DNA from: Gekko japonicus
Lineage: Eukaryota
Length of the DNA: 64,000 bases
Reading direction: 5' to 3'
NCBI RefSeq assembly: GCF_001447785.1
Contig: NW_015163194.1
Location: 1 to 64,000, forward strand
The notes below the pieces were generated by a model that searched no databases, was not told the DNA's origin, and saw nothing but the letters and a program-made list of their open reading frames with translations. Both the position numbers and the translations under genes were made by a program. Of the stretch, positions 6,824 through 62,870 are shown one piece after another (the first letter of the stretch is position 1; every line of letters begins with the position of its first letter).

Positions 6824-7050
6824 CATACCTCNNNNNNNNNNNNNNNNNNNNNNNNNNNNNNNNNNNNNNNNNNNNNNNNNNNNNNNNNNNNNNNNNNNNN
6901 NNNNNNNNNNNNNNNNNNNNNNNNNNNNNNNNNNNNNNNNNNNNNNNNNNNNNNNNNNNNNNNNNNNNNNNNNNNNNNNNNNNNNNNNNNNNNNNNNNNN
7001 NNNNNNNNNNNNNNNNNNNNNNNNNNNNNNNNNNNNNNNNNNNNNNNNNN

Positions 7051-10797: not shown

Positions 10798-10801
10798 CTT
10801 T

Positions 10802-28978: not shown

Positions 28979-29286
28979 GCCACAGCACCTCTCCACTAAC
29001 TTTCGCTCAGGTACTCAGTTATGCACATCTGTATAGGACCACGTTTCTGTGCATTTGCCCAGCATTTAATAGGAATCGTAACAGGAACAATCACAACAGC
29101 AGTATAAACAATATCTTTATAATGACGAGATCTATAGCAGTCTTTATACAGATCAGGAAACATAAATGAAAAATCAGTCTTTGAGAATACACTGGTAAAA
29201 AGGACCATCTCTCACACAACCTTTGCTGATTGATTGCCCTGAACAACAAAAATATAGAGATTCGTGTATTATTTCCTTTGATTGTC

Positions 29287-32499: not shown

Positions 32500-33065
32500 C
32501 ACAGCTTAGAGGGAATTATGGTACTAACCCAATTCTTTTGACCGGTGGTGGCCAAAGATGTCCAGGACTTCTGTAAGACCTGTGAGGTGGGCCAGTCCCC
32601 TCTCTCCCCCTTTACCCATCATCCACACTTCTTTTGGTCAAGTCACTATGGACTTTGTAGGCCCCCTCCCCTGCACACCTTGGGACTCCCAACGTCTATT
32701 CATGCTGATGGACTATGCCACCCATTACCTTGAGGCCTTTACCCTTTGGAACATGAAAAGTGCAGGGGTGGCTAAGGCCCTAATGCATTTCTCTGCCCAT
32801 GTGAGCTTACTGCAGGACACTCTAATGGATAGAGGGACTTTGTTAAGTTTTACAGATCTGCCAGATCTTCATCACCATACACCATCCTCAAATGGATGGA
32901 CTGGTGGAATGTTTGAACCAAATCATAAAATCAATGCTGAGGAAGTTAGCATGTGAATGGCCAACTGCATGGGACCTTTATATCGACACTTTGATGTTTG
33001 TGATCCGGGAAGCCCCACAGGCCTCCATGGGGTTCGCCTGGTTCAAATCCGTGTATGGGAGAAAG
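32500..33065 (+). mobile_element. Gypsy-type integrase remnant (duplicated at ~38620..39185)
   Basis: Motifs KDVQDFCKTCEV, MDFVGPLP, MDYATHY.EA, HPQMDGLVE.LNQ.IKSML, REAPQASMGF; frameshifted. Confidence 0.8.
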
Positions 33066-33740
33066 CATAGAATTTGGTGCAACAGTGGGACCAGAACTCT
33101 AGAAGCAATCCCACTGTTGCCCCTGAAGCACCAAGAATACAGAGCATCACTGCTCCAGACATAGTGTCCCATCTATTCCTTGTGCCTAAAAGCTACTGAG
33201 GGATCTGTGCTCCATATGTTTATCCAATCCCCTCTTGAAGCTGTCCATGCTTGTAGAAGCCACCACCTCCTGCAGCACTGAATTCCCTGTGTTACTGTCT
33301 ACTCAGACTGGCAGCAGCACTCCAGGGTCTCAGGTAGAGGTCTGTCACATCACCCAGTGCCTGGTCCTTTTAACTGGAGATGCTGGGAACTGAACCTGGG
33401 ACCTTGTGCATGCCAAGCAGATGCTGTACCACTGAGCCACTGCCCCTCTCCACTAACATTTGCCCAGCTACTCAGGAATACACATCTGTATAGGAACACA
33501 TTTCTGCGCATTTGTCCACGATTTAATAGGGATCAAAACAGGAAGAATAACAACAGCAGTATAAAGAATATATAATGTTCAGATCTGAAGTAGTCTTCAT
33601 ACAGAACAGAAACATAAATGAAAAACCAGTCTTTAAGAATGCACTAGTAGAAAGGACCATCACTTGTAGAATGTTTGGTAACTGATTGCCGTAGAATCAT
33701 GTCTTATTTATAGAGTCATGTATTATTTCCTTTGATTTTC

Positions 33741-34703
33741 CTATATGATCCTCTTCTTTTTCAAGAGCCTGGCCATTGCTTCCTTTACCTGATCATTCCT
33801 GAGACAGTAGATCAGGGGGTTAAGCAGAGGGGTAACCGATGAGTAGAAAAGAGTCACCACTTTAGTGACTGTGGCATGACTCTCCCCATCGGGACCGGCA
33901 TACATAGCTGCAACAGAGCCATAGAAAAGGGTCACCACTGCTAGGTGGGAAGAGACTGTGGAGAAGCCCTTGCCGCGGCTACTTGGACTAGAGGCTTTCA
34001 CCAAGGTGACACCTACAAATCCATAGGACACAACAATGAAGAGGAAGGTGGCCAGCAGCACAGAGGAGACAATGACATGGAGAAGGGTGGCAACATACCC
34101 TACAGGAGGGCAAGCCAAGGCTAGGATGGGGCCCGGGTCACAAAGGAAGTGGTCAATAGTGTTGGGACCACAAAAAGACAGCCTGGAGATCAAAACCCCT
34201 GGTACAACATGTGTCAGAATACCAAAGATCCAACAAACAGCCACTAGAACATAGCAAGAATCTTGGGACAGAGCATAGCAAGAATCTTGGGACATAATCT
34301 TGGAGTATTGCAGAGGGCGGCAGATGGCCAAATACCGATCCAAGGCCATGGCTGAGAGGAGCAACAATTCAGTACAGCCGAGTGAGAAGAAGACATAAAA
34401 CTGGATGAAGCAGGCATGGAAGGAGATGACCCCGTGTGTGAAAGGCAGGTCAAAAAGCATTCTCGGCACAGTAGCAGTGACATAACAGATCTCCAGGCAG
34501 GAGAAGTTGCCCAGCAGGATGTACATGGGAAGGCGGGCCAGGTGAGAGTCTTGAATGACCGTCATGATGATAATGAAGTTTTCAGCCAATGTGAGGGCAT
34601 AGATAGCTGTGAACAAGGCAAAAAGCAGCATTCGCCCCTGTTGTCCCACGCTGAAGCCTAGCAGAATGAACTCCTGAACCGTGGTTCCATTTACTAGCTC
34701 CAT
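33741..34703 (-). CDS. Olfactory receptor, OR11-like, 320 aa, with in-frame 8-aa duplication in intracellular loop 2
   Basis: Full set of OR motifs. SQDSCYAL-SQDSCYVL results from a 24-bp tandem repeat at 34246..34293. Confidence 0.92.
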   Translation of the reverse strand: MELVNGTTVQEFILLGFSVGQQGRMLLFALFTAIYALTLAENFIIIMTVIQDSHLARLPMYILLGNFSCLEICYVTATVPRMLFDLPFTHGVISFHACFIQFYVFFSLGCTELLLLSAMALDRYLAICRPLQYSKIMSQDSCYALSQDSCYVLVAVCWIFGILTHVVPGVLISRLSFCGPNTIDHFLCDPGPILALACPPVGYVATLLHVIVSSVLLATFLFIVVSYGFVGVTLVKASSPSSRGKGFSTVSSHLAVVTLFYGSVAAMYAGPDGESHATVTKVVTLFYSSVTPLLNPLIYCLRNDQVKEAMARLLKKKRII

Positions 34704-37803: not shown

Positions 37804-40288
37804 AAACCAAACTTGGTGCCCTATAGTAATTTTTACAGTCAGGTACTCCAGATCCAGCATTATCTTTCACATCCTTCAAGGCTTTCAATTTAATTCTTGG
37901 CTTTTCCCCTTGCCATATAAATAACAGTGCTTCAGAGCAGGGTCCAGCCTCCAAACCAGCCATTTCTTCCTGGGTAATTTAACCATTGTTTCCAATCTCC
38001 AGGTGGGGGCTGGAGACCACTCAAAATTACAACTGCTCTCTAGGAGGGAGGGGGAGGAGATGGAAAGCTGAAATCAGAGGGACAGATAAAGGTAGGTTGG
38101 TTGTTGGCTGGGAAGGAGATAGGGTTGCCACCTCCAGGTTGGGAAATTCCTGGATATTTGAGGGGTGGAGCCTGGAGAGGGTGGGGTTTGATGAGGGGTG
38201 AGACCTCAGATAGGTACAATGCCATAGTCTCCCCTCTCCAAACCAGCCATTTTCTTCCTGGGGAACCATAGCTGCCAATGTCCAGGTGAGGTAGCAAAGA
38301 TCAGTTCCTCTGGAGAAAATGGTGGAGTCTGTGTCATTATACACTGCTGAGGTTGCCACAGCAAATTGATGCTGAGTGCACCCGCCCACAGCCTCTTTCT
38401 AGAGCTCATTGTATTTATTTTCACAACAGGCCTTATTCCTAGTAGGCTACAATGGAGAATTGATCCAGGACTATCTGGAGCTCTGGGGGTGTGTTTCTTT
38501 TGAGGTAGAGGCACCACATTTGCAGCATTGTTTTCAATTGAGGGAAAATGCATTAATATGATCAGAACATTAAATTCCCTGAGCCGGCAGCTAAATTTTT
38601 TTACACCAGCACCCCCTAGCACAGCTTAGAGGGAATTATGGTACTAACCCAATTCTTTTGACCGGTGGTGGCCAAAGATGTCCAGGACTTCTGTAAGACC
38701 TGTGAGGTGGGCCAGTCCCCTCTCTCCCCCTTTACCCATCATCCACACTTCTTTTGGTCAAGTCACTATGGACTTTGTAGGCCCCCTCCCCTGCACACCT
38801 TGGGACTCCCAACGTCTATTCATGCTGATGGACTATGCCACCCATTACCTTGAGGCCTTTACTCTTTGGAACATGAAAAGTGCAGGGGTGGCTAAGGCCC
38901 TAATGCATTTCTCTGCCCATGTGAGCTTACTGCAGGACACTCTAATGGATAGAGGGACTTTGTTAAGTTTTACAGATCTGCCAGATCTTCATCACCATAC
39001 ACCATCCTCAAATGGATGGACTGGTGGAATGTTTGAACCAAATCATAAAATCAATGCTGAGGAAGTTAGCATGTGAATGGCCAACTGCATGGGACCTTTA
39101 TATCGACACTTTGATGTTTGTGATCCGGGAAGCCCCACAGGCCTCCATGGGGTTCGCCTGGTTCAAATCCGTGTATGGGAGAAAGCATAGAATTTGGTGC
39201 AACAGTGGGACCAGAACTCTAGAAGCAATCCCACTGTTGCCCCTGAAGCACCAAGAATACAGAGCATCACTGCTCCAGACATAGTGTCCCATCTATTCCT
39301 TGTGCCTAAAAGCTACTGAGGGATCTGTGCTCCATATGTTTATCCAATCCCCTCTTGAAGCTGTCCATGCTTGTAGAAGCCACCACCTCCTGCAGCACTG
39401 AATTCCCTGTGTTACTGTCTACTTGGACTGGCAGCATCACCGAATGCCTGGTCCTTTTAACTGGAGATGCTGGGAACTGAACCTGGGACCTTGTGCATGC
39501 CAAGCAGATGCTGTACCACTGAGCCACTGCCTCTCTCCACTAACATTTGCCCAGCTACTCACTTACAAAAACAAACGAAGGAGGGGAACCAGCGTACATA
39601 AATAGGTACAAAGTAAAAAAAAAATGCTGGCTGAATTCACAGAGGTGATCACAATATTAAAAAAAATTAAAATTTAATGCCGAGTTCAATAACGCAATAA
39701 CAATATAACAAAATAAAGCCAAGTTGTTCTTGCAAGAAACTACAGTAGTGCAGAAAAATAATGTCCCCAAAATTTCAATGTGTCTTACTCCTGTTGCATT
39801 ATAATTCTATAGTCCAACTTGACATCCATTCATCATAGAGTGGACTCATATAGTTCCTGAAAAATCCTTATAATCTTGAAATCCATAAACCATAGAAGAT
39901 GCATAGTCTGGATGCAAGCTGCCGCATTTTGAATAATACTTTTTCAAAACCAATAGGCTACAGTGGGACCCAATCTCAGTAGTAGCACATACAGAAGCCA
40001 GTTTATTCAATCACAAAGGTTAAACACATTTCTATAGGATCACGTTTCTGTGCATTTGCCCACCATGTAATTGGAATCAGAACAGTAACGATAACAACAG
40101 CAGTCGAAAGAATATCTTAATAACGTTGAGATCTGAAGTAGTCTTCATACAGATGAGGAAACAAATATGAAAAACCAGTCTTTAAGAATGCATCATTAGA
40201 AAGGACCATCTCTCACACAACCTTTGGTAACTGAGTGCCCTAAAACAACAAAAATATAGAGAGTCATGTATTATTCCCTTTGATTTTC

Positions 40289-42897: not shown

Positions 42898-44158
42898 AAA
42901 CCTTCCCCCCCCCACCTCACAGTACTGTTTGTGAGTCTTCAGAATCAGATGGATGGAATCTTTACCTTTTTCGCTACGGAGATAGTTGAGGCTCAAAAGA
43001 CTTCTCATCAATATCTGCAAATGTGAAATATTGTTTGCAAATGTTGTTCTTTGCTCGCCTAACGAATATTCGACTGAGATGGTATGGAACTACGGGAAAA
43101 GAGATCCATAATCATATTCCTATTTATCCCCCCCCTTTTTTCCTTACTTTCCCTTCCCGTTCCTCTCATAGTTATCTCCTGCATCTTTCCCCGCATTCCT
43201 ATAGCATCATCATTATCACCACCACTCCTATATTTTACTTTGGTTTTCTTCTCCCGCAAACACCTTTTCTTCTGGAAAATGGCGGTGATTATATGAATGT
43301 GCAGACAGTGCAGGGGGCTCACCCCTTTAGGAGGGGAATGTTCCCTGCTTCAGCAAGCACACCATCTGAAAGCAAAGGACCCTGATTCTATCACCAGGGT
43401 GGTCACTACAAGTGTATCAAGGGATCAAGGGTGGAGCCCTCAGAAAGCTGCTTCCAGTTCAAGTAGAGACTACTCATCTGGATTTCTTATGAGTTCCCAC
43501 ATGAAGGCTGAACCCTGTTTCATAATGGTCATGCCTTCCTTTGGTTAAAGTCTGCACATTTCTGGTACTAAAAATGGATTGGACAGCAGTTCAGTTTATT
43601 ACAAAGAATGTCAACAGAGACTAATGTTACACCACTTTTTCAGTGAGTTTTAGTTTTGCTCTGAAAATGAGCCAGTCTCGGAGGGCAGATTTTAAAAAGT
43701 GCCATATTCAAATGGAACACGTAGATGCTCATATGACAAAGTTGAAACTATTGAACATGTGATCATGGAGTGTCCTATATTTAACAAATTGAGGACCAGT
43801 TTGATCACTCCTTTATTTAAAAATATGGAAACACCCATTGAGGCTTTTGAAGGTATGAGGGCACAGGTGATGTGATTATTATTGGATACAAATTATTCTG
43901 CTCCTCTTTCTGTGTGCAAAATTTATAGGAGCGATAATTAAATATCAGAAAAATAATATTAAGTAAGTTCTTATTTTATTTTATATTTATTTTTACACAG
44001 GGTCTAGATTGCATTAGAAATTGTATCTTTTGGAACAAAACTGGAAAGCATAATATTGCAGTACCGTCTAGGTTATGTTCACCTGATTAGGACAGAAGGT
44101 GATACGTTATGAGGCCTCTATAATACTCCTTAGCGTTGAGCCACTGATAAGTATTATA

Positions 44159-44542
44159 GGCCCCGGTCACACGGGCCAGATAACACGGGGGGGGGAGGCA
44201 TGGCTCTTTGCGCTGGTGCAATTAGACCCACCAGTACATGATCAGATGTGACGGCGGCACACCGCGGTTTCATCCATCAGCGCATGTGCATCAATGAGGA
44301 CAGCCGGGGGGGGGGGAGCCGCACGCCGGTGCGATCACACGGAACAATTCCATCGGCAGCCTATGGCAAACCATTTGCTAGTACATATGGTAAGATAATT
44401 TTTAACTGTGCATCTTTGGTGGCACGCCACGGGTTGGCCACGGGTGTGCTATGCCTCCCAGATGTTCCGGTGTGATTGCGCCCGGAAAATCCACCGAACA
44501 ACCATGCCTTTCACACAGCAAATGCTCTGTGTGACCGGGGCC
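44159..44542. mobile_element. PIF/Harbinger-type MITE
   Basis: Perfect 14-bp TIR GGCCCCGGTCACAC / GTGTGACCGGGGCC; 3-bp TSD ATA. Confidence 0.85.
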
Positions 44543-46102
44543 ATAATATATTTTTACTTGGTTTTATATTGAGCAATACTTTGTTTTATTATTGCAGCAT
44601 TGAGCCTATATGTAATCTTTATGTTTGACCACTGAAGAAGGCCAGTTGGCTGAAATACAACTACTTTTGGGTCACATAAGGTCCTATTTGTGACTATTGT
44701 ACGATTTTAATTCTTATTGAGGCTACATTTGGGCTGATAAATGTTTTTAAATCATTTTGTAATACACACATGTATTTTTGATAACCTGTATTATCTATAT
44801 GTTAATGTTCTATATCTACTGGTTTTAAGATTGGGCCCTCCAATTTGTATGTATTTAACCTTTTGGGGTTTTAATTAATATTTCTTGGGCTAAGTTTTTT
44901 CCTGCATTCCTTTTTCTTCTTTAGTTAAAAAATTTATCCCACATTTTTCAGATATTGACCTAACCATCATCTGCTTCTTAGGTGCTGTATCATACTTGAC
45001 AGGACTTTCTCATGTAATAATCTGAACCCACGAATTCCTAACATGGTGCTTGTGGGCACCATGGCAACTGCTGACTCTTTTCCTGGCACTTGCCAAGTGT
45101 TTCTGGAAAGTTGGTTGTGCCAGTTGGGGGTTTTGCCCAGCAAGGCTCCTGATTGGCCATTGGAGAATGGATTGGCTATGCAGATCCTCAGCACAAGGAT
45201 CTGCATTGTGTGACTGAAGGTAAGCTGTGGCAGCCATTTTGTGGTTGGCTTTGCTTCCTGTGGCTGCCATTTTGTGGTTTGGCCCAGCACACAGCGTTTT
45301 TAATTCCAAAGGTGCCTGCAACCTTGAGCAGGTTGGGGTTGGGGCCTTCTGTCCTAACCAGTCAGGGATCATATATCAAACATGATGATCTCACTAGGCC
45401 CTACCTTGGTAACCTTCATTGGTGATTTCATGCAAGACAATTGTCCCAAGACAGCTCTTGTCACCTGTAGGTAGGGTAAAATGCTAGGGCGAAATGTGGA
45501 TTGGGTGTACATCTATGTGCATATTCACATGCTTTGCACTGAAAGTTAAGCAATGTGAATGGGTGAGATCTGCAGTCTGATGTGTGTCATGATACACATC
45601 CATTTCACAGAGCTTACCCTTCTGCTCCTTATTGCATTCCCAGAGATATATTCAGTTATTCATCTACATCTGCTTAGTTTTTCACATTGTGCTCCTGCTA
45701 GCCAGTGGCATCAGCCCTGTTTGACTCGGCAATGAAACAGTGGTTTTCTCTTTACTCTGCCACTCAAACTCTTTCATAATGACCATTTGCACTCGGCTTG
45801 GTGAGAAATGGGTGGTGCCAGTCACAAAGCAAAGTTTAAAGGGGGATTGCAACCATTTTTAGTTCTAATAGGTCCAATGAGCTTCTTGCTGGGTCCAAAG
45901 AGCTTCTCGCTGGTGAAAAAGGGAGGAGGCCAACCCAAAAGATACTATGCTTGGAATCATGTGAGTTGTATTGACAAAAGTCATTTGGGATGGGGACTGT
46001 AATAGGGAGGAAAATTGGGTGAGATGGAGTGAAAATCCTGATTGAATCCCACTTAACGTTTTTTAAATATATTGAAATTTGGAAGCATGTAAAAGAATCA
46101 CA

Positions 46103-46450
46103 TGGAGCTGCGGTGGCTCAAGTGGTTAAGACGCTGAACTGCAGGCTGTGGAAGGTCGGTAGTTCAGCAGTTCAAGACCGGGGTTGCCGCATGACGGAGT
46201 GAGCTCCCGTCTCTATTCCAGCTCCTGCCAACCTAGCAGTCCGAAAGCAAGAAATTGCAAGTAGAGAAATAGGGACCACTTTGGTGGGAAGGTAACAGCA
46301 TTTCATGCGCCTTGGTGTTTAGTCATGCCGGCCACATGACCACAGAAACGTCTTCAGACAGCGCTGGCTCTTCGGCTTTGAAACGGAGATGAGCACCGCA
46401 ACCCTAGAGTCGGACTCGACTGGCTTTCGAGCAAGGGAACCTTTACCTTT
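46103..46450 (+). mobile_element. Sauria SINE, full length
   Basis: tRNA-like head, gctcctgccaacctagcagt body, (accttt)n tail, 13-bp TSD taaaagaatcaca. Confidence 0.88.
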
Positions 46451-47449
46451 TAAAAGAATCACAAAGAGTTATGCTCTACAGCATATACAGAGTTAGCTCC
46501 AACATGAGTTGCCTTTGTCCCAAGGAGGTTCAGCTCAGTGATGAGATAATTTGTCAGTAGCCACAAAATATCATCTGCACAGGCCATGTTCCGTCTTTTA
46601 AGTGTTGCTTGTTACATTTGCCTCTCCCATTCCTCTTCCTCTTCTGCTGTATTCCTTCTCCAGCCTCTCCCTTGACTATCCTCTCCTGTGGTTGATATTC
46701 AGATTGTAAACTCTTTGGGAGGAATATTATTCTGGCTCTTATGCGCCATGAGAAATAATGACAAAGTAAAAATTAACGCAACAATAATTTTCTATAACAA
46801 CATTCTGTATATGGGTATCACCATACTCTCTTGCACAGCTTCCAAGCAGCTCAGGAAAATATATGTGCATTTCTCCCTTTATCATTTTAATCTCACAACA
46901 ACCCTGTGAAGAAGGCAAGGCTGAGAGATAGTCTTTGTCACTCTGTGAGTGCACGAGTAAGAAGCTGGACCCTGGATCTTAGCTTGAGATCAGTTCTTAT
47001 GCATCCGCTTGTCCGCTTTCTTTGCCCGAACTGCTTTGCCGATGCAGAATGGAGAAATACCTTTGAAAAGCTTAGAAGAAGAGGGAGGTAATAGCGCTCC
47101 CTCATACATATCTATCTGGCCAATCCTCAAAGAAGCTCTCAGGGGTTTCCATAGTTCTCCTTTCCCCACTTTATCCTCACAATTTGGTTATGCTGAGAGA
47201 GAATGATCGTCCCAGAGAGCTTCTTGGGTGAATGGAGATCTGAAACCATCTCAGGTCTTCCTTACCTTGCAAGCCTATTTGCATGCATAGCAACCAACAC
47301 AACCCTCTCATTAGGGAAAGGGGCAAAGACTGTGGGCATAAAGAGGTGACTTGAATGGTAAGCAGCTATGCTGCATCTGGAAGCTAGAATGAAGGGCTAG
47401 GGAAAGCAGAGGCAGCAGTGAATGAATGATGTTTATTTCCGGTCAAAGA

Positions 47450-48260
47450 CCATTCGTCAGAATAATACATATTTGTTCAATACAAACAGATTAGCTTTCA
47501 GTCCAAAAGTATATATTTAGAGATATAACCTTAAAACCATTAAAATGTAAAAAAATAAAAAGTTTAACTGTCCATTATATCAGAATAACTATGAAAATGT
47601 CTAAAACTAAACTAATTATAAATCATACAAAAGGTGATTGAGGGTATTTATTGTGGAATTTTGCCAGCTGGAAGCAGGATTTAGCTATTTGTCTGGAGTT
47701 TTGCTGATCTTCCTCTGTCAGAAGTCTCTCTAGAACAGCACTATCTGCATCAGGTGCTGGCCTATCTCAGAGGGGAGAGATAAGCTTATCCCTGTAAACT
47801 TGATGAAAGGGGCAGCGGAAGAACATATGGGGCACCGATTCCACTTCTCCCAAGGAACATGGGCAGCACCTGTCTTCATATGGTATCTTTCTATATTTTC
47901 CCTCTAGAACAGTGGTTCTCAACCTTCCTAATGCCGCGACCCTTTAATACAGTTCCTCATGTTGTGGTGACCCCCAACCATAAAATTATTTTTGTTGCTA
48001 CTTCATAACTGTAATTTTGCTACTGTTATGAATCGTAATGTAAATATCTGATATGCAGGATGTATTTTCATTGTTACAAATTGAACATAATTAAAGCATA
48101 GTGATTAATCACAAAATCAATATGTAATTATATATTGTGAAATATTTATTTCTAATTACAGGCGACCCCTTAGACGACCCCTGTGAAAGGGTCGTTCGAC
48201 CCCCAAAGGGGCCGTGACCCACAGGTTGAGAACCGCTGCTCTAGAACCTTAGAGGGAATA
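47450..48260 (-). mobile_element. Old LINE 3' fragment (RTE-X-like) interrupted by the SPIN MITE; relatives at ~36990-37345 and 43540-43980 (+)
   Basis: VLEGKYRKIPYEDRCCPCSLGEVESVPHMFFRCP zinc-knuckle motif. Confidence 0.55.
47910..48238. mobile_element. SPIN (URR1-like) non-autonomous hAT transposon
   Basis: TIRs CAGTGGTTCTCAACCT / AGGTTGAGAACCGCTG, perfect 8-bp TSD ctctagaa, body matches the recalled SPIN/URR1 consensus. Confidence 0.9.
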
Positions 48261-49377
48261 GGAGGCAGCAGTGGGATCCCCAGGAAGGAAGCAAGGAAGG
48301 AAAAGAAAGGTACCAGGAGAGTCAGAAAATAAGTTTAGGCTAGCCCCTTCCCACTGACTCGGGTTAAGCTGGTCTTTATGGGTATTGCTTAACGACATTC
48401 CTACCATTAGAAGCTATTCCATTAACCTCGATTGTAACATGACATTGATTGATATTGTCCTACTAGCAGGCCTGTAGCCATGGGGGCATTTGGGGGCATT
48501 GCCCCCTACCGATGAATGCTGCCCCTCAGACAAAAGAAATAGATTTAAAAAATGTTTTTTATTGCAAGTACCAGGAGAGTCAGAAAATAAGTTTAGACTA
48601 GCCCCTTCCCACTGACTCGGGTTAAGCTGGTCTTAATGGGCATTGCTTAAAGACATTACTACCATTAGAAGCTAAGGGGGTGTGGCATATGCTAATGAGT
48701 TATGCTAATGAGTTCCCCTAGCTCTTTTTCTACAAAACGACCCCTGGTAGCAGGCCTGTAGCCATGGGGGCATTTGGGGGCATTGCCCCCTACCGATGAA
48801 TGCTGCCCCTCAGACAAAAGAAATAGATTTAAAAAATGTTTTTTATTGCAAGTTGCACGTGGGTGTTCCGAAATGACCCCAGGCACAGTCAAAGAAACTT
48901 CAGTCACATTTTTTTTCTTTTTTTCCAGGCCAAAAATTAAACGGGTTTTTAAAAATGCAATGAAATAAAATAGCCGAAAATAGAATAAAATTGCGAAATG
49001 AAAAATAGAGTTGGAGATTCCCCCCCCCGGCTTATGCAGAAAAGGAGTCCAGAATCGAGTCTCTACAATGGAGGGGACTAGAGGACCAGAGGAGGACTAG
49101 AGGTCGCAGTGGAGCCGGAGCTGCCGCTTCTGCCGTTGCAAGAGGAGCAGCAGGTGTGCCCAGGGTGCCCCCCTCGGTTTCTCCATGCCCCGCCAACCGA
49201 AATTTTCTGGCTGTGCCCCTGCCTACTAGAGATCATAAAATACAAAGAGGCAATCCAAGTTTACAAAATGCACCAGGGGACCTAACCCCCACTAGCTATG
49301 GCAGCGATTGTTCCCAAATAGCAAGCAGATCGGCATGTGCATTTGAGTTAATGGCTGTCCTGCTTCTCCCCATGACC

Positions 49378-50343
49378 CTACTTCATCCTCTTCCTTTGCA
49401 AGCGTCTGGATACTGCCTCCTTCACCTGGTCGTTCCGAAGGCAGTAGATCAGCGGGTTAAGCAGAGGGGTGACGGCAGAGTAGAAGAGAGTCACGACCTT
49501 CGTTGTCTCTGCGCGATCTTCCCCGTTCGGCTCTACGTACATTGCGACCACAGAGCCATAGAAAAGGGTCACCACGGCCAGGTGGGAAGAGACTGTGGAG
49601 AAGCCCTTCATACGGTTGCTCCGGCTTGATTTTTTGACCAGGGTGAGAGTTACAAATGCGTACGAGACTGCAATGAACAGAAAGGTGGCCAGAACAACAG
49701 AGGAGACAAAGATGTTGAAGAGGCGGGGTACATACCCCAGCGGGGGGCAAGCCAAAGCAAAGAGGGGACCCGGATCACACACAAAGTGGTCAATAGTGTT
49801 GGGGCCGCAGAAGGATAGCCTGGAGATCAGGAACACTGGTGCTGCGTACCACAAGAAACCAAGGATCCAGCAAGCAGCCACCAATTTGTAGCAGGCCTCT
49901 TGAGACATCATTTTCGGGTACTGCAGTGGGCGACAGATGGCCAAATAGCGATCCAAGGCCATGGCCGAGAGGAAGAAGCATTCGGTATTGCCGAGGGAGA
50001 AGAAGTTGTAGAATTGGAGGAAGCAGGCATGGAAGGAGATGACCCCATATGGGAAGGACAGGTCAAAGAGCATCCTTGGCACTGTGGCACTCACATAACA
50101 CATCTCTAGCCAGGAGAAGTGGCTGAGCAAGATGTACATGGGAAGGCGGGCCAGGTGAGAGTCTTGAACGACTATCGTGATGATGATGATGTTCTCAGCC
50201 AAAGTGAGGGCATAGACAGCCATGAAGAAGATGAGAAGGAGCAGGCGTCCCTGTTGTCCAACCCTGAAGCCCAGCAGGATGAACTCCTGTACTGTGGTCC
50301 CATTGCCCACCTTCGTCTCATGCACAGGACCACTCTGCATCAT
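49378..50343 (-). CDS. Olfactory receptor, OR11-like, intact, 321 aa (downstream copy of a 1261-bp tandem duplication)
   Basis: Full set of OR motifs; 5 aa differences from 50639..51604. Confidence 0.9.
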   Translation of the reverse strand: MMQSGPVHETKVGNGTTVQEFILLGFRVGQQGRLLLLIFFMAVYALTLAENIIIITIVVQDSHLARLPMYILLSHFSWLEMCYVSATVPRMLFDLSFPYGVISFHACFLQFYNFFSLGNTECFFLSAMALDRYLAICRPLQYPKMMSQEACYKLVAACWILGFLWYAAPVFLISRLSFCGPNTIDHFVCDPGPLFALACPPLGYVPRLFNIFVSSVVLATFLFIAVSYAFVTLTLVKKSSRSNRMKGFSTVSSHLAVVTLFYGSVVAMYVEPNGEDRAETTKVVTLFYSAVTPLLNPLIYCLRNDQVKEAVSRRLQRKRMK

Positions 50344-50638
50344 CGTTCAATAGAAAACAAAGCTCTTCCATCCAAAGCTTGGAGCAGATTCTGCCGTTGC
50401 AAGAGGAGCAGCAGGTGTGCCCAGGGTGACCCACTCAGTTTCTCCATGCCCCACCAACCAAAATTTTCTGGCTGTGCCCCTGCCTACTAGAGATCATAAA
50501 ATACAAAGAAGCAATCCAAATTTACAAAATGCACCAGGGGACCTAGCCCCCTCTAGCTATGGCAGCGATTGTCCCCAAATAGCAAGCAGATCAGCATGTG
50601 CATTTGAGTTAATGGCTGTCCTGCTTCCCCCCATGACC

Positions 50639-51604
50639 CTACTTCATCCTCTTCCTTTGCAAGCGTTTGGATACTGCCTCCGTCACCTGGTCGTTCCGAA
50701 GGCAGTAGATCAGCGGGTTAAGCAGAGGGGTGACGGCAGAGTAGAAGAGAGTCACGACCTTCGTTGTCTCTGCGCGATCTTCCCCGTTCGGCTCTACGTA
50801 CATTGCGACCACAGAGCCATAGAAAAGGGTCACCACGGCCAGGTGGGAAGAGACTGTGGAGAAGCCCTTCATACGGTTGCTCCGGCTTGATCTTTTTACC
50901 AGGGTGAGAGTTACAAATGCGTACGAGACTGCAATGAACAGAAAGGTGGCCAGAACAACAGAGGAGACAAAGATGTTGAAGAGGCGGGGTACATACCCCA
51001 GCGGGGGGCAAGCCAAAGCAAAGAGGGGACCCGGATCACACACAAAGTGGTCAATAGTGTTGGGGCCGCAGAAGGATAGCCTGGAGATCAGGAACACTGG
51101 TGCTGCGTACCACAAGAAACCAAGGATCCAGCAAGCAGCCACCAATTTGTAGCAGGCCTCTTGAGACATCATTTTCGGGTACTGCAGTGGGTGACAGATG
51201 GCCAAATAGCGATCCAAGGCCATGGCCGAGAGGAAGAAGCATTCGGTATTGCCGAGGGAGAAGAAGTTGTAGAATTGGAGGAAGCAGGCATGGAAGGAGA
51301 TGACCCCATATGGGAAGGACAGGTCAAAGAGCATCCTTGGCACTGTGGCGCTCACATAACATATCTCTAGCCAGGAGAAGTGGCTGAGCAAGATGTACAT
51401 GGGAAGGCGGGCCAGGTGAGAGTCTTGAACGACTATCGTGATGATGATGATGTTCTCAGCCAAAGTGAGGGCATAGACAGCCATGAAGAAGATGAGAAGG
51501 AGCAGGCGTCCCTGTTGTCCAACCCTGAAGCCCAGCAGGATGAACTCCTGTACTGTGGTCCCATTGCCCACCTTCGTCTCATGCACAGGACCACTCTGCA
51601 TCAT
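50639..51604 (-). CDS. Olfactory receptor, OR11-like, intact, 321 aa (upstream copy)
   Basis: Full set of OR motifs: PMYILLSHFS, MALDRYLAICHPLQY, KGFSTVSSHL, PLLNPLIYCLRN. Confidence 0.93.
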   Translation of the reverse strand: MMQSGPVHETKVGNGTTVQEFILLGFRVGQQGRLLLLIFFMAVYALTLAENIIIITIVVQDSHLARLPMYILLSHFSWLEICYVSATVPRMLFDLSFPYGVISFHACFLQFYNFFSLGNTECFFLSAMALDRYLAICHPLQYPKMMSQEACYKLVAACWILGFLWYAAPVFLISRLSFCGPNTIDHFVCDPGPLFALACPPLGYVPRLFNIFVSSVVLATFLFIAVSYAFVTLTLVKRSSRSNRMKGFSTVSSHLAVVTLFYGSVVAMYVEPNGEDRAETTKVVTLFYSAVTPLLNPLIYCLRNDQVTEAVSKRLQRKRMK

Positions 51605-52507
51605 CGTTCAATAGAAAACAAAGCTCTTCCATCCAAAGCTTGGAGCAGATAAAGCAAATAATGCTGGGCAATCAGTCGTCCTACAGCTCAGAGCAGGCTG
51701 GTGTTCCTGAGGCAAGGATTCCTGTTTGTAGAGATAGCCACTGGTGTGTCCAAGTTATGCTGAAGAAGAAGAATCCAATTTCTGAATATGGTTACATTTT
51801 TTTAAAAAAATCAAATATCGTTACCAAGAAGAAGGTTTAGATCAGAAGTGGTCTGGCTTCAGTCTTGTGTGACCTTGTCTGTGTGGGGGGTTTTTTGCTA
51901 GAACCCTGGTGATCTGCTCAGACCTTTTTAAATTTATAAAGCAATCTGGCACATTCATTGTCTCAGGACAGTTACAGAGCAACTATGTCGAGTCCTCTAG
52001 AGTGTACAGTTGTGCTGGAAAGAATAGCCCTTACTAGACCAACCCAAAGCTCCGTTTATCCAGAATTCAATGCAAAAACCACAGTCCACCTGAAATTAGC
52101 CAGTGGTCCTCCAACGGACCTTGATTTTCCTTCTACACATATCAGCTTAAGTGGCAACCAACCATTCGGTCCTTCTCTTTAAGAAAGGTGGAATGAAGCG
52201 CAAGCCTTTCCACCTCTACCCACTATTTCCCATCTTTATTGCTGTACCTTAGTCATTCTCAGAAAGCTGCTCCAACTAACCAGGGACTTGATGTAGACAC
52301 ATTGCTGGCTTTGGGGGGTGGGGCCTTAGGTACTACTCCTTTTATCAAAATCTGGGTTGAAATGCCATCTTCTTTGTGGTGAAAACAGACAAGATTTTAT
52401 CATGTGGGTGGACTTTAGGCAGGTTGGCCTTACAAAGGATGGATTAGGTCTGTATAGAGGATGGATCATGTTTTTAAAGGATTGCTATGAAGACTGCATC
52501 TAAAAAA

Positions 52508-52607
52508 AAATGGCCCTTGGGAAGTTGTCTACAGAGAGTAATTCTGTTTTCCAGAAACTAAATTTTCCTTAGAGATCAATTGCCTACTGGAGATTTAGTA
52601 ATTTACA
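52508..52607 (-). promoter_or_regulatory. Putative OR promoter module for the 50639/49378 pair
   Basis: AAATGGCCCTTGGGA followed by TCCTTAGAGATCAATTGCCTACTGGAGATTTAGTAATTTACA; candidate donor AG|GTACAG at 52246-52247. Confidence 0.55.
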
Positions 52608-53267
52608 AGATCTTCTTATCTTTCTGGGTACCAAATCCCCTGCACGGAATAGATGGAGCTATGGAGGTGGGGCTCACACTGGGATTACTTTGGCTATGCG
52701 GGGCTTTCTTCCACATGTCCAGTGAACCTGCTGCTTGGTCAGTTATGACTAGGGCTATGTGCTTGGATACATTCAGTCCAAAGATATACCTGGAGAAGTT
52801 GGCTTGGCGTGGATTCTCTGGTTTGACATTGGTTGTATTGGGCTTGCCACATTGGCCTGCGATTTTGCTGGGTTCTCTGGTTTGATGTTTGTTCTGTTTG
52901 TATTGGGAGGCTTTTGGTCAGTGGCTGCATGCATTTGGGTGTCTGGCTATTCTTTGCCCTGGAGAAAGCTCCTTTAAAGGGAAACCATGGAGGATGGCTG
53001 GGGATCAAATTGGTTCAGTTTCCATGAAACATGTAGAAACTTTAGGGGACAGGTAGCACTAACCCTGCTGCGATTTTAGTGCCATCTTCTCAAAAAACAG
53101 CCACTTCAACTTTTCAGAAATATTCCCCATAGGGAATAATGGACCCAAATAGTTTTGGAATCCCAAAACATCCCAAATCTGGATATCAAATTGGTATTTG
53201 GGACTGGAATAACTCAGAATACTGATAATTATGCCCTCCCCAATATCTGGATCTAAAGACCAAACAA

Positions 53268-53444
53268 CATTTTGTAAACAGCCTTGATGCCCCCTGGATC
53301 TCTCTCCACCAAGTTGCCACTGATGTCATAACTAGGGATGTTCACCTAAAAGGGGGGGGGCTTTTAGGTGAACATCCCTAGTTAAGACATCAGTAGCAAC
53401 TTGGTGGGGAGAGGTCCAAAGGCATCAAGGCTGCTTACAAAATG
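53268..53444. repeat. Inverted repeat, ~85-bp arms, G-run loop
   Basis: cattttgtaaacagcc...ttcacctaaaag pairs with cttttaggtgaa...ggctgcttacaaaatg, with about 7 mismatches. Confidence 0.9.
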
Positions 53445-54159
53445 TGTTTTGGATTCCTTTGTGTCCATGCTGCACATTTTGGAGGCTTCTGTTTATTCTG
53501 TTGGCTGTTGATTTAATGACCAGCAAATGATATGAGACCTGGAAGGTTTCTTCTGCATATTTGATTCAGAAAAGTCCTGTTCTCATTTGTCTTGTAGTCC
53601 AACCCTGGGGGGAAGGGGCATGTCTAACCTACTTTTGATTTATTGACATTCGCCACAGAAATCTCATGCTCAGAGTTCTGAGTCTAGGACCCAGGTTAAA
53701 ACATGAAATGGCTGAGTGATTAAGAGAGTTTGGTGAAGCAAGCTATGATGCAGCAGCAGCAGCAGCAGCAGAACTGGAAGCAGGAGATGGCCAGTTCTAC
53801 TACGGGCCTGATGGAAGCCCTCCGGGGGCCTGATCTGGCCCCCGGGCCGCATGTATGACACCCCTGGGTGGTTTTAATGCTGATGTTTGCAATTGTGTTA
53901 TACGTGTCAGATTGTAATGGTCTTTGGCCACAGGCAATAAACTTTATTGTATCATAACTAAACAAAGAGCTTCTTGTATGATCACAAGCAAATCACTTTC
54001 CCATGGATCGTTGATGGTGTCAATATTGCAGATATTAGTCTTCTGCTAAGACTTCTGTGCTTATACAGAAAGATTAGAGATGGAAGGTAATAATTAATTA
54101 AATAACAATTTAAACAGTAACTTGATCATTATTATTTTAATAACAACAGCAAAAAGAAC

Positions 54160-54430
54160 AACTACCATTGTGCCAGTTGTCATGGAAGCCCTTGGGCCAG
54201 TGCCTAGAAGCCTCAAGAAACACCTGGACCTTCTGAACATTCTGAACAATAATACCATTCTGAACAAATAATACCAGCTAAGCTCCAAAAGGCAGTGTTG
54301 CTTGGAACGGCAAGAATCCTGCAAAGATACATATGCAGTTCCCAAGAACCTGGCTAGATCTTGAATTGCAGAACACCATCTGTCAGTCAAACATATGACT
54401 GTGACAACTGATGATGGTGATGATAATAAA
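54160..54430 (+). mobile_element. R4/Dong-type non-LTR retrotransposon 3' fragment
   Basis: IVPVVMEALGPVPRSLKKHL..LQKAVLLGTARILQRY (restriction-like endonuclease C-terminus), flanked by TAA-rich sequence. Confidence 0.65.
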
Positions 54431-55020
54431 TGTAAACACCAAGCTACAATTTATGGACACTGAAGCTGCATTACACTGAAATCAGACCTTTGGTCTATCA
54501 CGATAAGTATTGTCTACTCAGACTGGCAGCGGGTCTCCAGAGTCTCAGGCAGACAGAGGTCTTCCACATCACCTACTGCCTGGTCCTTCACTGGAGATGC
54601 AGGAGATTGTACCTGGAACCTTCTGCATGCTAAGCAGAGGCTCTACCACTGAGCCATGGCCCCTCCCAATACACTAGTTAATTTGCATGTCATTTTTATT
54701 TTGTTGCCCTGGTAAAAAAGCTCATCCCTTCAAAACCACATGATTGACTGCACACAGATACCATTTGGTGCATTGCCAATAGTGTATAGAAGTACTACTA
54801 TACGTATAACTTTTTAGTCTGAGAACAGACCTGGAAGACATTTTCCCTCTGTGTGTGTTATTTTTCAAACAAGCACTTTGGTGATGACATCCAGCTTATA
54901 AATACACCCTATAAAGTTTCTATTGAAAACCACCTTGTGGCCTCTAGCCACATAACCAATTGGACTTTAGGTAAAGTTTGGGACATTGTACAAGTCACTT
55001 TGGTTCATCTGAAAAACAGC

Positions 55021-56265
55021 TCAGTTTTGTTCGCTCTTCACACAAGAATGAGAGAAAATGCACTTGTTCCTCAACCGCCCCATAGCCTCCTTCATTTCAT
55101 GATTCCTTAGTGTATATATGATAGGATTGAGGGCGGGCGTGACCACTGTGTAGAATATGGAAGCCATCTTGTCCACCCTGGAGCTGGAGAATGGTATGAG
55201 ATACACAAAGAGGCAGGGTACAAAAATCAGGCTGACCACCATCAAGTGTGAGCCGCAGGTGGACAGGGCCTTCCCTCCCCTTTCCTTGAAATGGCCCTTA
55301 AGAGTTGCTATGATGACGCCATAGGAGACAAGCAAGATGAGGAAGGAGACCAGGGAGAGGAGGCCACTGTTGGCCACCATGAGGAGCTCTGTGACATAGG
55401 CATTGGCACAAGCGAGCCTGACCAGCTGTGGGACGTCACAGTAGAAACTGTCCAGCTCATTTGGGCCACAAAATGGAAGCCGGAGGATCAGAACCAGTTG
55501 GGTTGCAGAATGGATGAAGCCTCCGACCCAGCACGAAACAAGTAGCCTGACGCAGCGTGGCCGGTTCATGGCGACCCTGTAAGTCAGTGGTAAGCCATGA
55601 GTGTGAGAAGCAGCATCTCTGAACCACCCAAAAAGTGGAGGAAGAAGAACTGGGCCATGCAGCCCCCAAATGAAACGGTCCTGCCACAGGTCACGAGGCC
55701 GGCCATCTTCTTCGGGGTGCGCGAACAAGACATCACAGTAGAAACTGTCCAGCTCATTTGGCCCACAAAATGGAAGCCGTAGGATCAGAACCAGTTGGGT
55801 TGCAGAGTGGATGAAGCCTCCAACCCAGCACGAAACAAGTAGCCTGACGCAGCGTGGCCGGTTCATGGTGACCCTGTAAGTCAGTGGTTGGCAGATGGCC
55901 ACGTAGCGATCATAAGCCATGAGCGTGAGGAGCAGCATCTCTGAACCGCCAAAAAAGTGGAGGAAGAAGAACTGGGCCATGCAGCCCCCAAATGAAATGG
56001 TCCTGCCACAAGTCACCAGGACGGCCATCATCTTCGGGGTAGCCACACACCCCAAGGCAGCATCGATGATGGACAAACTGGCCAGGAAAAAGTACATGGG
56101 GGACTGATGGAGGCGGGGCTCTGTGGTCACAGTTACCACAATGAGAAGGTTGCCAGACATAATGGTAGTATAGCAGACCAACATTGGGACGAAGAGAAGG
56201 AGTCGGATGGAATGGGAGCAGGAGATACCCAGGAAGATGAACTCAGTTACAGTGGAGCCATTCAT
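55021..56265 (-). CDS. OR4-like olfactory receptor with a 99-aa internal insertion (414 aa); chimeric gene or pseudogene
   Basis: OR4-type motifs: SPMYFFLASLS, GGSEMLLLTLMAYDRYVAIC, GGFIHS, LPFCGPNELDSFYCDVPQL, ANSGLLSL, KALSTCGSHL, NPIIYTLRN. Start at MNGST (56265). Segment 55729..56040 is repeated at 55432..55718. Confidence 0.8.
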   Translation of the reverse strand: MNGSTVTEFIFLGISCSHSIRLLLFVPMLVCYTTIMSGNLLIVVTVTTEPRLHQSPMYFFLASLSIIDAALGCVATPKMMAVLVTCGRTISFGGCMAQFFFLHFFGGSEMLLLTLMAYDRYVAICQPLTYRVTMNRPRCVRLLVSCWVGGFIHSATQLVLILRLPFCGPNELDSFYCDVLFAHPEEDGRPRDLWQDRFIWGLHGPVLLPPLFGWFRDAASHTHGLPLTYRVAMNRPRCVRLLVSCWVGGFIHSATQLVLILRLPFCGPNELDSFYCDVPQLVRLACANAYVTELLMVANSGLLSLVSFLILLVSYGVIIATLKGHFKERGGKALSTCGSHLMVVSLIFVPCLFVYLIPFSSSRVDKMASIFYTVVTPALNPIIYTLRNHEMKEAMGRLRNKCIFSHSCVKSEQN

Positions 56266-56279
56266 GGAGAGGACATAAC

Positions 56280-56301
56280 CTGGGGAAGAGAAGATGGTTA
56301 G
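56280..56301 (-). promoter_or_regulatory. 3' splice acceptor of the OR4-like coding exon
   Basis: Minus strand reads CTAAC (branch point) catcttctcttcccc AG|gttatgtcctctccATG, a canonical acceptor 14 nt before the ATG. Confidence 0.8.
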
Positions 56302-56351: not shown

Positions 56352-56736
56352 AGACAAATCCAGGTGGACAGCCGTGTTGGTCTGAAGAAGCAGAACAAAT
56401 TTTGAGTCCAGTGGCACCTTTATGACCAACAAAAGTTTATTCAAGGTATGAAATGGAAGTTAACAGTGCAATATATATATGCAGTGCAATATATATATGC
56501 AGATACCTCTATACAGATGAACAGCAAATTAACATATATCTTTAGCAAATGGAGACTGTATGAACTTAGCTTGCTATTTCTGTTCAATCTTTGCATATGT
56601 CAAAACATCTTCATTAAGTTGTATGCTAATTTGCTGTTCACCTATGTAGAGGCATCTGCCTATATAGATGAACTGTTAACTTCCATTTCAATGTATCTGA
56701 GGAAGTATGCTTGCACAGGAAAGTTCATACCTTGAT
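56352..56736. mobile_element. Non-autonomous Penelope-like element with internal long inverted repeat
   Basis: agccgtgttggtctg..agtggcacctttatgaccaac terminus, degenerate minimal hammerhead at ~56693-56730, TSD acagcagccataa/acaacagccataa. Confidence 0.65.
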
Positions 56737-61411: not shown

Positions 61412-62067
61412 TCTCTCCAACATTGAGGGGAATGAGAGGACGTAATTTTTAAAAGCTTTTCTGGTGTGAGGTACCACCTGGTGATGATCTTGTATGTCTG
61501 TAATTTTGTTGATACGACTGGCGAGTTCATTAACTTGGAGGTCCAGATTTGTGACCGTTGTTGTTCTGTGATGTTATTCTCACAATCTTGTTGCCACTTG
61601 TGCTGGTGTCTCTTTATTTCCACCTTGGTGGATCAAAATGTCATATGTTGCCGTGATCAATCCTTTGGAATTTTTGTTGTCTGTTCCAATGAGGTTTTCA
61701 TTTTGTTGTCTTTTCCAATGAGAGGTTCTTTTATTATTGCCGATATACCAAGATGTTGAATCATGTGATTTAGTTGGAGATAGAGATGTCCTCTCATTTC
61801 CCTCAATGTTGGAAAAGATGTGGAGAAGTGGGAACATTTACCCACTGTTTGTGGCAGTGTAGAAGCATCAGATCTTTCTGGCAAGACGTTCTAAACCAAA
61901 TAAAACTAATCACAGGTTACGAAGTACCATTCGACCCAACTCTAATCTTTTTGGGCATCTGGAAAGCAAAAAATATACCAATGTTCAGTCGTGAATTGAT
62001 CACTAGGCTCATAGTGGCTGCTAAAACATCTATAGCCTCTAAATGGAAATCAGACAAGACTCCAACA
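61412..62067. mobile_element. L1 3' fragment with 5' inversion (twin-priming structure)
   Basis: Minus-strand ORF2 piece (YKIITRWYLTP..SSHSPQCW) at 61412..~61785 abuts a plus-strand piece (SSHFPQCWKRCGEVGTFTHCLWQC) from ~61787. About 30 bp are duplicated at the inversion point. Confidence 0.85.
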
Positions 62068-62603
62068 NNNNNNNNNNNNNNNNNNNNNNNNNNNNNNNNN
62101 NNNNNNNNNNNNNNNNNNNNNNNNNNNNNNNNNNNNNNNNNNNNNNNNNNNNNNNNNNNNNNNNNNNNNNNNNNNNNNNNNNNNNNNNNNNNNNNNNNNN
62201 NNNNNNNNNNNNNNNNNNNNNNNNNNNNNNNNNNNNNNNNNNNNNNNNNNNNNNNNNNNNNNNNNNNNNNNNNNNNNNNNNNNNNNNNNNNNNNNNNNNN
62301 NNNNNNNNNNNNNNNNNNNNNNNNNNNNNNNNNNNNNNNNNNNNNNNNNNNNNNNNNNNNNNNNNNNNNNNNNNNNNNNNNNNNNNNNNNNNNNNNNNNN
62401 NNNNNNNNNNNNNNNNNNNNNNNNNNNNNNNNNNNNNNNNNNNNNNNNNNNNNNNNNNNNNNNNNNNNNNNNNNNNNNNNNNNNNNNNNNNNNNNNNNNN
62501 NNNNNNNNNNNNNNNNNNNNNNNNNNNNNNNNNNNNNNNNNNNNNNNNNNNNNNNNNNNNNNNNNNNNNNNNNNNNNNNNNNNNNNNNNNNNNNNNNNNN
62601 NNN

Positions 62604-62870
62604 CTCCACTTGCACCTGCTGATGTGACCTTGGGTCAGTCACAAGCTCTGGCACAGCTGTTCCTGAAAGAGCAGTTTGTGTCAGGGTTCTCTCAGCCCCA
62701 CCTACCTCACAGGGTGTCTGTTGTGGGGAGGGGAAGGGAAAGGAGTTTGTAAGCCGCCCTGAGACTCCAAATGAAGGGCAGGGTATAAATCCAGTCTCTC
62801 CTCTCCTCTCCTCTCCTCTCCTCTCCTCTCCTTCTCCTTCTCCTTCTCCTTCTCCTTCTCCTCCTCCTGC
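62604..62870 (+). mobile_element. MIR/Ther1-derived SINE (Squam3-like) with (CTCTC)n/(CTCCTT)n tail; other copies at ~4645-4825, 5373-5490, 19515-19750, 22453-22580, 46850-47250, 61284-61415
   Basis: Core gtgaccttgggtcagtcac and cctacctcacagggtgtctgttgtgg, followed by a microsatellite tail. Confidence 0.72.

What the first reader, a model, noticed from the sequence alone, without database searches (positions are those of the whole stretch)
55021..56265. OR4-like 414-aa ORF that looks like a fusion of two paralogs, kept open by compensating frameshifts
Seen: a 312-bp segment (55729..56040, TPK..CDV) is followed by a 10-bp filler (55719..55728) and a second copy (55432..55718) that lacks 25 bp covering DRYVAICQ. 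The net gain is 297 bp, so the frame is restored with no stop codon. About 46 residues are read out of frame (LFAHPEED..FIWGLHGPVLLPPLFGWF..) and TM4 plus half of ECL2 appear twice. Of about 15 substitutions between the copies, about 10 are synonymous in the OR frame, far above neutral expectation. Inference: the copies diverged under purifying selection as separate genes and were then joined by a deletion. The out-of-frame hydrophobic stretch could speculatively act as an extra helix and give a 9-TM topology. Otherwise this is a pseudogene that ORF-length annotation would call intact.
Basis: partly seen in the sequence, partly recalled or inferred. Interest (0 to 1): 0.7.

Follow-up and report, generated by a model that had tools for sequence, protein, structure and literature searches.

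The report
Gecko smell receptor with doubled middle
A gecko smell-receptor gene in this draft genome carries its middle part twice yet reads through without a stop, likely because a DNA-repair accident joined two diverged working copies out of step, leaving a probably broken receptor that protein databases hold as a full-length entry; other animals' sequence did not show the join, so an assembly error remains possible.

Summary
In detail: a 414-aa OR4Q3-like ORF with a 312-bp segment, 10-bp filler and 287-bp second copy; 10 of 15 differences are synonymous (P 0.0007-0.005). The copies therefore diverged as working sequences and were then joined out of register. Whether they were young paralogs or deep alleles is unresolved. 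Close gecko relatives carry 1-3 lineage-specific copies, but both halves share one orthogroup.

The open frame needs no selection. The shifted frame is already open in copy A and in 4 of 15 receptors checked, and 16% of simulated deletions would reopen it. The 9-TM idea is not supported: the shifted stretch is less hydrophobic than every true helix and is disordered in two AlphaFold models.

The join is unconfirmed. None of 4 runs shows it, and two contigs leave it at its edge. The assembly is fragmented and has a suspect 1.26-kb tandem repeat 4 kb away. However, three sequence versions exist in this genome, and part of copy B is matched exactly in another sample.

Verdict: likely a dead receptor with an intact-looking frame (0.55); artefact 0.25; low interest. 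A word search of the scan's earlier findings returned nothing like it.

The parts
55021..56265 (-). 414-aa OR4Q3-like ORF = a normal 315-aa receptor plus 99 extra residues
   Evidence: exact sequence in public protein sets as a one-member cluster
56280..56294 (-). pyrimidine tract and AG splice acceptor 14 nt before the start codon (likely end of the 5'-UTR intron)
   Evidence: sequence; function inferred
56041..56265 (-). single-copy 5' part (N-terminus, TM1, most of TM2)
   Evidence: about 98% identical orphan contig L002
55729..56040 (-). copy A, codons 76-179 (end of TM2, TM3 with DRY, TM4, first half of ECL2), in frame
55719..55728 (-). 10-bp filler at a non-homologous junction (codon 179 joined to codon 76); shifts the frame
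   Evidence: its 8-nt inverted match at +55027 is within chance (12-18%)
55591..55718 (-). copy B, first part, read out of frame (with the filler: residues 180-225); 9 differences from copy A
   Evidence: disordered in both models
55590..55591 (-). point of the 25-bp deletion in copy B; it starts at the first stop codon of the shifted frame and restores the OR frame
55432..55590 (-). copy B, second part, in frame (second ICL2, TM4, half ECL2); 6 differences from copy A, 5 synonymous
   Evidence: 151 of 151 letters matched by a record of run X7 at 55428-55578
55021..55431 (-). single-copy 3' part (rest of ECL2, TM5-7, tail)
   Evidence: covered by one contig each in runs X2 and X3

Best explanation
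This is a gecko OR4Q3-like odorant-receptor gene with a 297-bp in-frame internal repeat, likely made when end-joining repair fused two already diverged working copies out of register, and it likely encodes a non-functional receptor whose frame stayed open by luck. Shown: the repeat anatomy, the synonymous excess, the absence of homology at the junction, and three versions of the segment in this genome. Inferred step 1: copies A and B evolved as working sequences (young tandem paralogs about 60:40 over deeply diverged alleles). Inferred step 2: a break after codon 179 of one was joined through 10 filler bases to codon 76 of the other, as a deletion between tandem genes or an unequal join between homologues. 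Inferred step 3: a 25-bp deletion, in the same event or earlier/later, removed the first stop of the shifted frame. Predicted step 4: the protein has eight hydrophobic helices with only a polar, proline-rich 46-residue linker between TM4a and TM4b, so either one TM4 is left out of the bundle as a 99-residue loop or TM5-7 insert upside down; either would most likely block folding and trafficking.
For: Synonymous excess 10 of 15, P 0.0007-0.005. A-B divergence 15/287 exceeds A vs orphan contig 5/314, window vs X2 18/808 and the neighbouring tandem pair 19/1262 (Fisher P 0.02, 0.015, 0.0005), and is close to window vs organism B, 50/899. Over the same 89 nt the genome holds three versions (A-B 5, A-L002 1, B-L002 5 differences), more than two alleles of one locus allow. 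B's second part is matched 151/151 in run X7. The contig has no N gap between 18692 and 59318, and A and B share no run longer than 46 nt. Heteronotia has 2 and Eublepharis 3 lineage-specific copies of this gene. The shifted frame is open for 42 codons in copy A itself and in 4 of 15 OR stretches; 1821 of 11660 simulated deletions (16%) leave the ORF open. Shifted stretch: best 19-residue hydropathy 0.88 against 1.25-2.60 for the eight helices; pLDDT about 22-43 and no helix in two models, each of which holds only one TM4 at high confidence. Short non-templated inserts at junctions are described for end-joining (PMC6258378, passages).
Against: None of 4 runs shows the junction; X2 record 16 and X3 record 24 reach its edge and go on for >=252 and 340 letters that do not fit it. 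X2 and X3 show one record per place over most of the 3' part and X2 mixes A and B states, which argues against two long-separate genes. No second 3' end or B-type 5' end is found in the own genome. A gap-less 1262-bp, 98.5% head-to-tail repeat 4 kb away may show this assembly laying haplotypes in tandem. The in-frame parts show no decay: 7 distinct private residues against 8-19 in seven gecko orthologs, so loss of function is predicted from topology, not seen in the sequence. That the deletion starts exactly at the first stop could reflect selection for an open frame. The folding alignments have no rows for the shifted stretch, which lowers its pLDDT whatever it does.
Confidence: 0.55

Rival explanations
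1. Assembly artefact: haplotype or paralog fragments were laid end to end and the gap closed, so no animal carries the 414-aa frame; the synonymous excess is that of two working alleles or genes.
For: Genome of 191,500 contigs with an orphan 98% allele-like contig for this gene. Neighbouring gap-less 1262-bp 98.5% tandem repeat. 0 of 4 runs show the junction and two contigs leave it. No other 414-aa form among 52 longer hits; one-member cluster. Heterotype false duplication is the main source of false gains in older assemblies (PMC9516828, passages).
Against: Three versions of the same 89 nt need an extra copy anyway. No gap between the copies and no overlap homology at the junction. 5.2% divergence is above local allele-level values. 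It needs two odd joins (filler and 25-bp deletion). Contigs show presence, not absence, and the laid animals differ from the window by 2% or more where they cover it well.
Confidence: 0.25
2. Simple tandem duplication inside one allele; the copies then diverged by neutral decay, error-prone repair near the junction, and later crossovers with intact alleles that refreshed the outer parts.
For: Both halves sit in one orthogroup. X2 and X3 look single-copy and X2 is intermediate between A and B. B's out-of-frame part is further from X2 (6/129) than the 3' coding part is (7/466; Fisher P 0.04, but P 0.13 against all 808 nt) and holds the radical changes M>K and D>G.
Against: The strongest synonymous bias (5 of 6, P about 0.01) is in the part where copy A lies next to the junction and could not easily be refreshed; by the gecko ortholog alignment the one amino-acid change there is on B's side. 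pS of 14% is far above the 1 synonymous change in 314 nt between A and L002.
Confidence: 0.12
3. The join is real and the gene still works, as a 7-TM receptor tolerating a 99-residue loop in ICL2 or ECL2, as a 9-TM receptor, or after splicing out the insert.
For: A complete in-order 315-aa receptor is contained in the ORF either way; the model aligns with consOR4 (8uyq) at Z 29.8, rmsd 2.8, 306 residues. No excess of private residues. The deletion removes exactly the first stop.
Against: No ninth helix by hydropathy or folding. No strong splice pair: 13 GT/GC-AG pairs give 305-325 aa, the best donor is a GC site at 6 of 9 consensus letters, and exact 297-nt removal needs a GC donor. D82V, N47T and S338G hit residues shared by 7 of 7 gecko orthologs. 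No relative has such an insert among 52 longer hits.
Confidence: 0.08

Closest known systems
Gecko OR4Q3-like receptors (XP_060110888/XP_060110886 Heteronotia, XP_056720151 Euleptes, XP_077171567 Paroedura, three Eublepharis copies); solved relative consOR4, PDB 8uyq
   Same: 84-92% identity, all OR motifs, same clade for both halves; fold match Z 29.8
   Different: These are 315-329 aa with one TM4; none has the 99-residue insert
Chimeric human OR8U1 from OR8U8/OR8U9 (PMC2570968, passages and figure legend read)
   Same: A deletion between tandem OR paralogs yields one fused open frame
   Different: OR8U1 arose by in-register NAHR in a 119-bp identical tract and has normal length; here the join is out of register, without homology, with filler and a duplicated TM4, and the two parent genes have not been found
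Pairs of compensatory frameshifting mutations (PMC8935012, abstract and section 5 read)
   Same: Two frame-shifting events bracket a stretch read in another frame; most candidates there are single-species and few survive quality filters
   Different: Those are 1-2-nt indels that rewrite an existing segment; here the shifted stretch is an addition inside a duplication, seen in one assembly only
False heterotype duplication / false exon gain (PMC9516828, passages read)
   Same: Adjacent near-identical copies in an unphased, fragmented assembly, unconfirmed by reads
   Different: No gap between the copies, three versions rather than two, and divergence above the local allele level

Membership tests
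Class II odorant receptor, family 4 (OR4Q3-like) | 7tm_4 domain and OR motifs (GN, PMYFFL, MAYDRYVAIC, FYCD, KALSTC, PxLNPIIYTLRN) | tested here: met
   PF13853/PF00001 on P0121; motifs (motif list partly as in PMC4626375 passage)
Class II odorant receptor, family 4 (OR4Q3-like) | groups with named OR4Q3-like orthologs | tested here: met
   both halves in an 8-row gecko clade, support 100/99 and 90/91
Intact functional odorant receptor | about 310-330 aa with exactly seven helices in order and short loops | tested here: not met
   414 aa, TM4 twice, 99 extra residues; seven can still be assembled in a model
Intact functional odorant receptor | expressed in olfactory neurons, reaches the surface, signals | not testable with these tools
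   no olfactory RNA laid; no assay
NAHR-type chimeric OR (OR8U1 kind) | in-register crossover inside a tract of identity | tested here: not met
   codon 179 joined to codon 76 through 10 filler bases
NAHR-type chimeric OR (OR8U1 kind) | two parent paralogs present on another haplotype or in a sister species | tested here: inconclusive
   not found in own genome; X2 and X3 look single-copy but records are filtered and contigs may collapse
Compensatory frameshift pair (pCFM) | two indels that shift and restore the frame without a stop | tested here: met
   +10 filler with a 312-bp repeat and -25 deletion
Compensatory frameshift pair (pCFM) | high-confidence set: 1-2-nt indels shared by several species | tested here: not met
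   10 and 25 nt; one-member cluster, no relative with the insert
False heterotype duplication | assembly gap between the copies | tested here: not met
   no N between 18692 and 59318; a closed gap would leave none
False heterotype duplication | only two versions of the sequence in the animal | tested here: not met
   A, B and L002 differ over the same 89 nt
False heterotype duplication | half read depth and discordant pairs over the copies | not testable with these tools
   raw reads of the source animal not available; laid runs are contigs of other animals
   hydropathy 0.88, crude insertion cost 6.9 against -1.4 to 5.1 for true helices and 8.0 for ECL2; coil at pLDDT <50 in two models; no dedicated topology predictor was available

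The most novel reading that the evidence does not exclude
The join is real and the gene is still selected: a vertebrate odorant receptor that works with a 99-residue insert made of a spare TM4 and 46 residues of frameshifted sequence, rescued by a deletion that removed exactly the first stop codon, with either TM4 able to serve in the bundle.
Probability: 0.07. Interest if true: 0.65.

Novelty: new variant of a known kind. Interest (0 to 1): 0.22.

Why it matters
As most likely read, it is a small but clean example of a receptor that passes the usual 'no stop, long enough' rule for an intact OR (860-bp rule in PMC10832353, passage) and sits in protein databases, while its topology is probably broken or the sequence is an assembly product; OR counts from such drafts include cases like this. 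If it proved real and functional it would show that an OR tolerates a 99-residue insert with a spare helix, which two literature searches did not turn up.

Tried and rejected
Split trees: cannot separate A from B, since the nearest named orthologs are only about 90% identical. Templated origin of the filler: an 8-nt inverted match 690 bp away occurs by chance in 12-18% of controls; not counted. Splicing-out: no convincing donor (simple consensus count, no trained model). Nonsynonymous-rich allele-level differences (8:3) against synonymous-rich A-B differences (5:10): Fisher P 0.11, not significant. Alignment A3 put every TM4 on copy B and was not folded. Expression: no RNA holder listed; X7 is only guessed to be RNA and its one record has depth 2, so it says nothing on expression. 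Run X1, the best holder, had nothing laid on the gene: no evidence either way. Why X2 record 16 was laid over only 129 of 751 letters is unexplained. Remnants of a second copy in window 44001-54600 and contig 58001-74000: none, only a 72% paralog. Paper PMC3821386 (error-prone CNV formation) was not held; only its title was seen in a reference list. Literature searches for an OR with internal duplication or an extra helix returned nothing relevant (listings only, apart from passages of PMC10832353 and PMC4626375). No supplements were read.

Full report
Observation. The window lies in a cluster of odorant-receptor genes on a 148-kb contig of a 2.49-Gb assembly in 191,500 contigs. The closest named proteins are gecko OR4Q3-like receptors, so the animal is taken to be a gecko. 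Over six mutation models the neutral synonymous share is 0.245-0.312 and P(>=10 of 15) is 0.0007-0.005; pN/pS is 0.16. The bias is clearer in the in-frame part (5 of 6) than in the part now read out of frame (5 of 9). The exact 414-aa sequence is held by NCBI, UniRef and nr as a one-member cluster.

What the repeat is. The protein is a normal 315-aa receptor plus 99 residues. The junction joins codon 179 to codon 76 with no homology, so it is not an unequal homologous crossover like OR8U1 (PMC2570968, passages). Short non-templated inserts at junctions are described for end-joining repair (PMC6258378, passages). A possible template for the filler in the gene's own 3' end is within chance.

Did the copies come from two genes? 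For: A-B divergence (15/287) is higher than A against the orphan contig L002 (5/314 in the coding part), the window against run X2 (18/808) and the neighbouring tandem pair (19/1262), Fisher P 0.02, 0.015 and 0.0005. It is about that of the window against organism B (50/899). Heteronotia has two and Eublepharis three close copies. The Eublepharis three form their own clade in both trees and the Heteronotia pair in the 5' tree, so this gene duplicates repeatedly. Against: both halves fall in the same 8-row gecko clade, which cannot separate sequences 95% alike. The own genome holds no second 3' end and no B-type 5' end, as either a deletion or an allele join would predict. In one search, X2 and X3 give one record per place over most of the 3' part. 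X2 has the A state at 55435, 55626 and 55629 but differs from B at only 6 of 129 letters where A and B differ at 9, so it is intermediate. That fits recombining alleles, gene conversion or collapsed contigs. I put paralogs over alleles at about 60:40.

Is the join real? Four of 24 listed runs were laid, on 54600-55875 only, all as contigs. None crosses the junction. X2 record 16 (751 nt) fits 55591-55719 and X3 record 24 (431 nt) fits 55628-55718; each goes on beyond the junction edge with letters that do not fit the filler (at least 252 and 340). X1 had nothing laid on the gene. X7 record 32 matches 55428-55578 in 151 of 151 letters, so B's second part is natural sequence, but it reaches neither the deletion nor the junction. 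These animals therefore appear to have an ordinary gene, which neither proves nor excludes a private or segregating allele. For an artefact: the fragmented assembly, the orphan allele-like contig, and a gap-less 1262-bp head-to-tail repeat at 98.5% 4 kb away; heterotype false duplications are common in such drafts (PMC9516828, passages). Against: over the same 89 nt the assembly holds three versions, there is no gap within 3 kb, A and B share at most 46 identical letters in a row, and two unusual joins are needed. I give the artefact 0.25.

Why the frame is open. The shifted frame is already stop-free for 42 codons in copy A, where it is never read, and in 4 of 15 OR stretches scanned. Its first stop is the TGA inside the codons for the MAYD motif, and the 25-bp deletion begins exactly there. 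Of 11,660 simulated deletions of 1-40 nt, 1821 (16%) leave the ORF open. Since the gene was noticed because it is open, luck suffices, though the exact position of the deletion is the one hint of selection. Single-species compensatory frameshifts mostly fail quality filters (468 candidates, 5 kept in vertebrates; PMC8935012 section 5).

The 9-TM idea. The best 19-residue window of the shifted stretch has hydropathy 0.88 against 1.25-2.60 for the eight helices, and a crude insertion cost of 6.9, nearer ECL2 (8.0) than any helix (-1.4 to 5.1) (both scales recalled, helix limits set by eye). Two AlphaFold models were made with opposite bias. With 112 homologs, which MAFFT placed on copy B in the 14-row alignment shown, TM4b is confident (79-90), TM4a weak (55-63) and 164-228 below 50. 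With 20 half-length paralog rows aligned to copy A, TM4a is confident (81-92), TM4b weak (about 55) and 166-238 below 50. Neither puts a helix in the shifted stretch. Both lack alignment rows there and do not model a membrane, so this is absence of support, not proof. In a cell both TM4 copies are equally hydrophobic, so inversion of TM5-7 or exposure of a spare helix is the likelier outcome (inference). No strong splice pair removes the insert.

Function. The in-frame parts carry 7 distinct private residues against 8-19 for seven gecko orthologs, so there is no visible decay; the join is young or the gene is still constrained. Three of the seven (N47T, D82V, S338G) alter residues shared by all seven orthologs, and D82 is retained in L002. 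No expression or assay data bear on it.

Comparison and verdict. It works like a chimeric OR made by a local rearrangement but is not of the in-register OR8U1 kind, and it resembles a compensatory frameshift pair but fails the high-confidence features. None of 52 longer relatives has this insert in the orthogroup (the 31 stored proteins of 340-500 aa were checked for internal repeats, and five distant mammalian entries also show two overlapping OR pieces). Searches for ORs with internal duplication or an extra helix found nothing relevant. The scan's earlier notes hold nothing matching by words but flag possible false duplications elsewhere in this assembly (unchecked leads). Best reading: real out-of-register join of two diverged working copies, probably a dead receptor, 0.55; artefact 0.25; one-allele duplication 0.12; functional insert-bearing receptor 0.08. 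Interest 0.22.

Noticed in passing
window 49128-50389 and 50389-51650: Gap-less head-to-tail 1262-bp repeat, 98.5% identical (19 mismatches), each unit holding a 321-aa OR (2 synonymous, 5 non-synonymous differences). Either a very young tandem duplication or two haplotypes laid in a row.
   Followed up: partly
L002 (G000:C102643:1-432): Orphan contig about 98% identical to the gene's 5' part; 4 non-synonymous and 1 synonymous difference in 314 coding nt, plus a 1-nt insertion upstream. Likely the other allele.
   Followed up: yes
window 31684-33474 and 37804-39561: 97.7% identical 1.8-kb blocks (8 mismatches, 33 gap letters) inside an older OR segmental duplication.
   Followed up: no
window 33741-34703 (-): 320-aa OR with a small in-frame tandem repeat of about 8 residues at the start of TM4.
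   Followed up: no
window 29286-30292 (-): OR paralog whose open frame is only 197 aa, with DRY read as DWY and a frameshifted end; likely a pseudogene.
   Followed up: no
window 56449-56690: MITE-like inverted-repeat element with many genomic copies about 200 bp upstream of the gene.
   Followed up: partly
window 6700-11750 (-) and 61786-62622: Broken L1-like LINE ORFs (family label from recalled motifs, not tested) interrupted by assembly gaps.
   Followed up: no
G000:C26467 (7945-8162, 18031-18248) and C5528 (116000-116058, 124922-124980): Pairs of OR hits with equal scores about 9-10 kb apart on other contigs; further candidate young or false tandem duplications.
   Followed up: no
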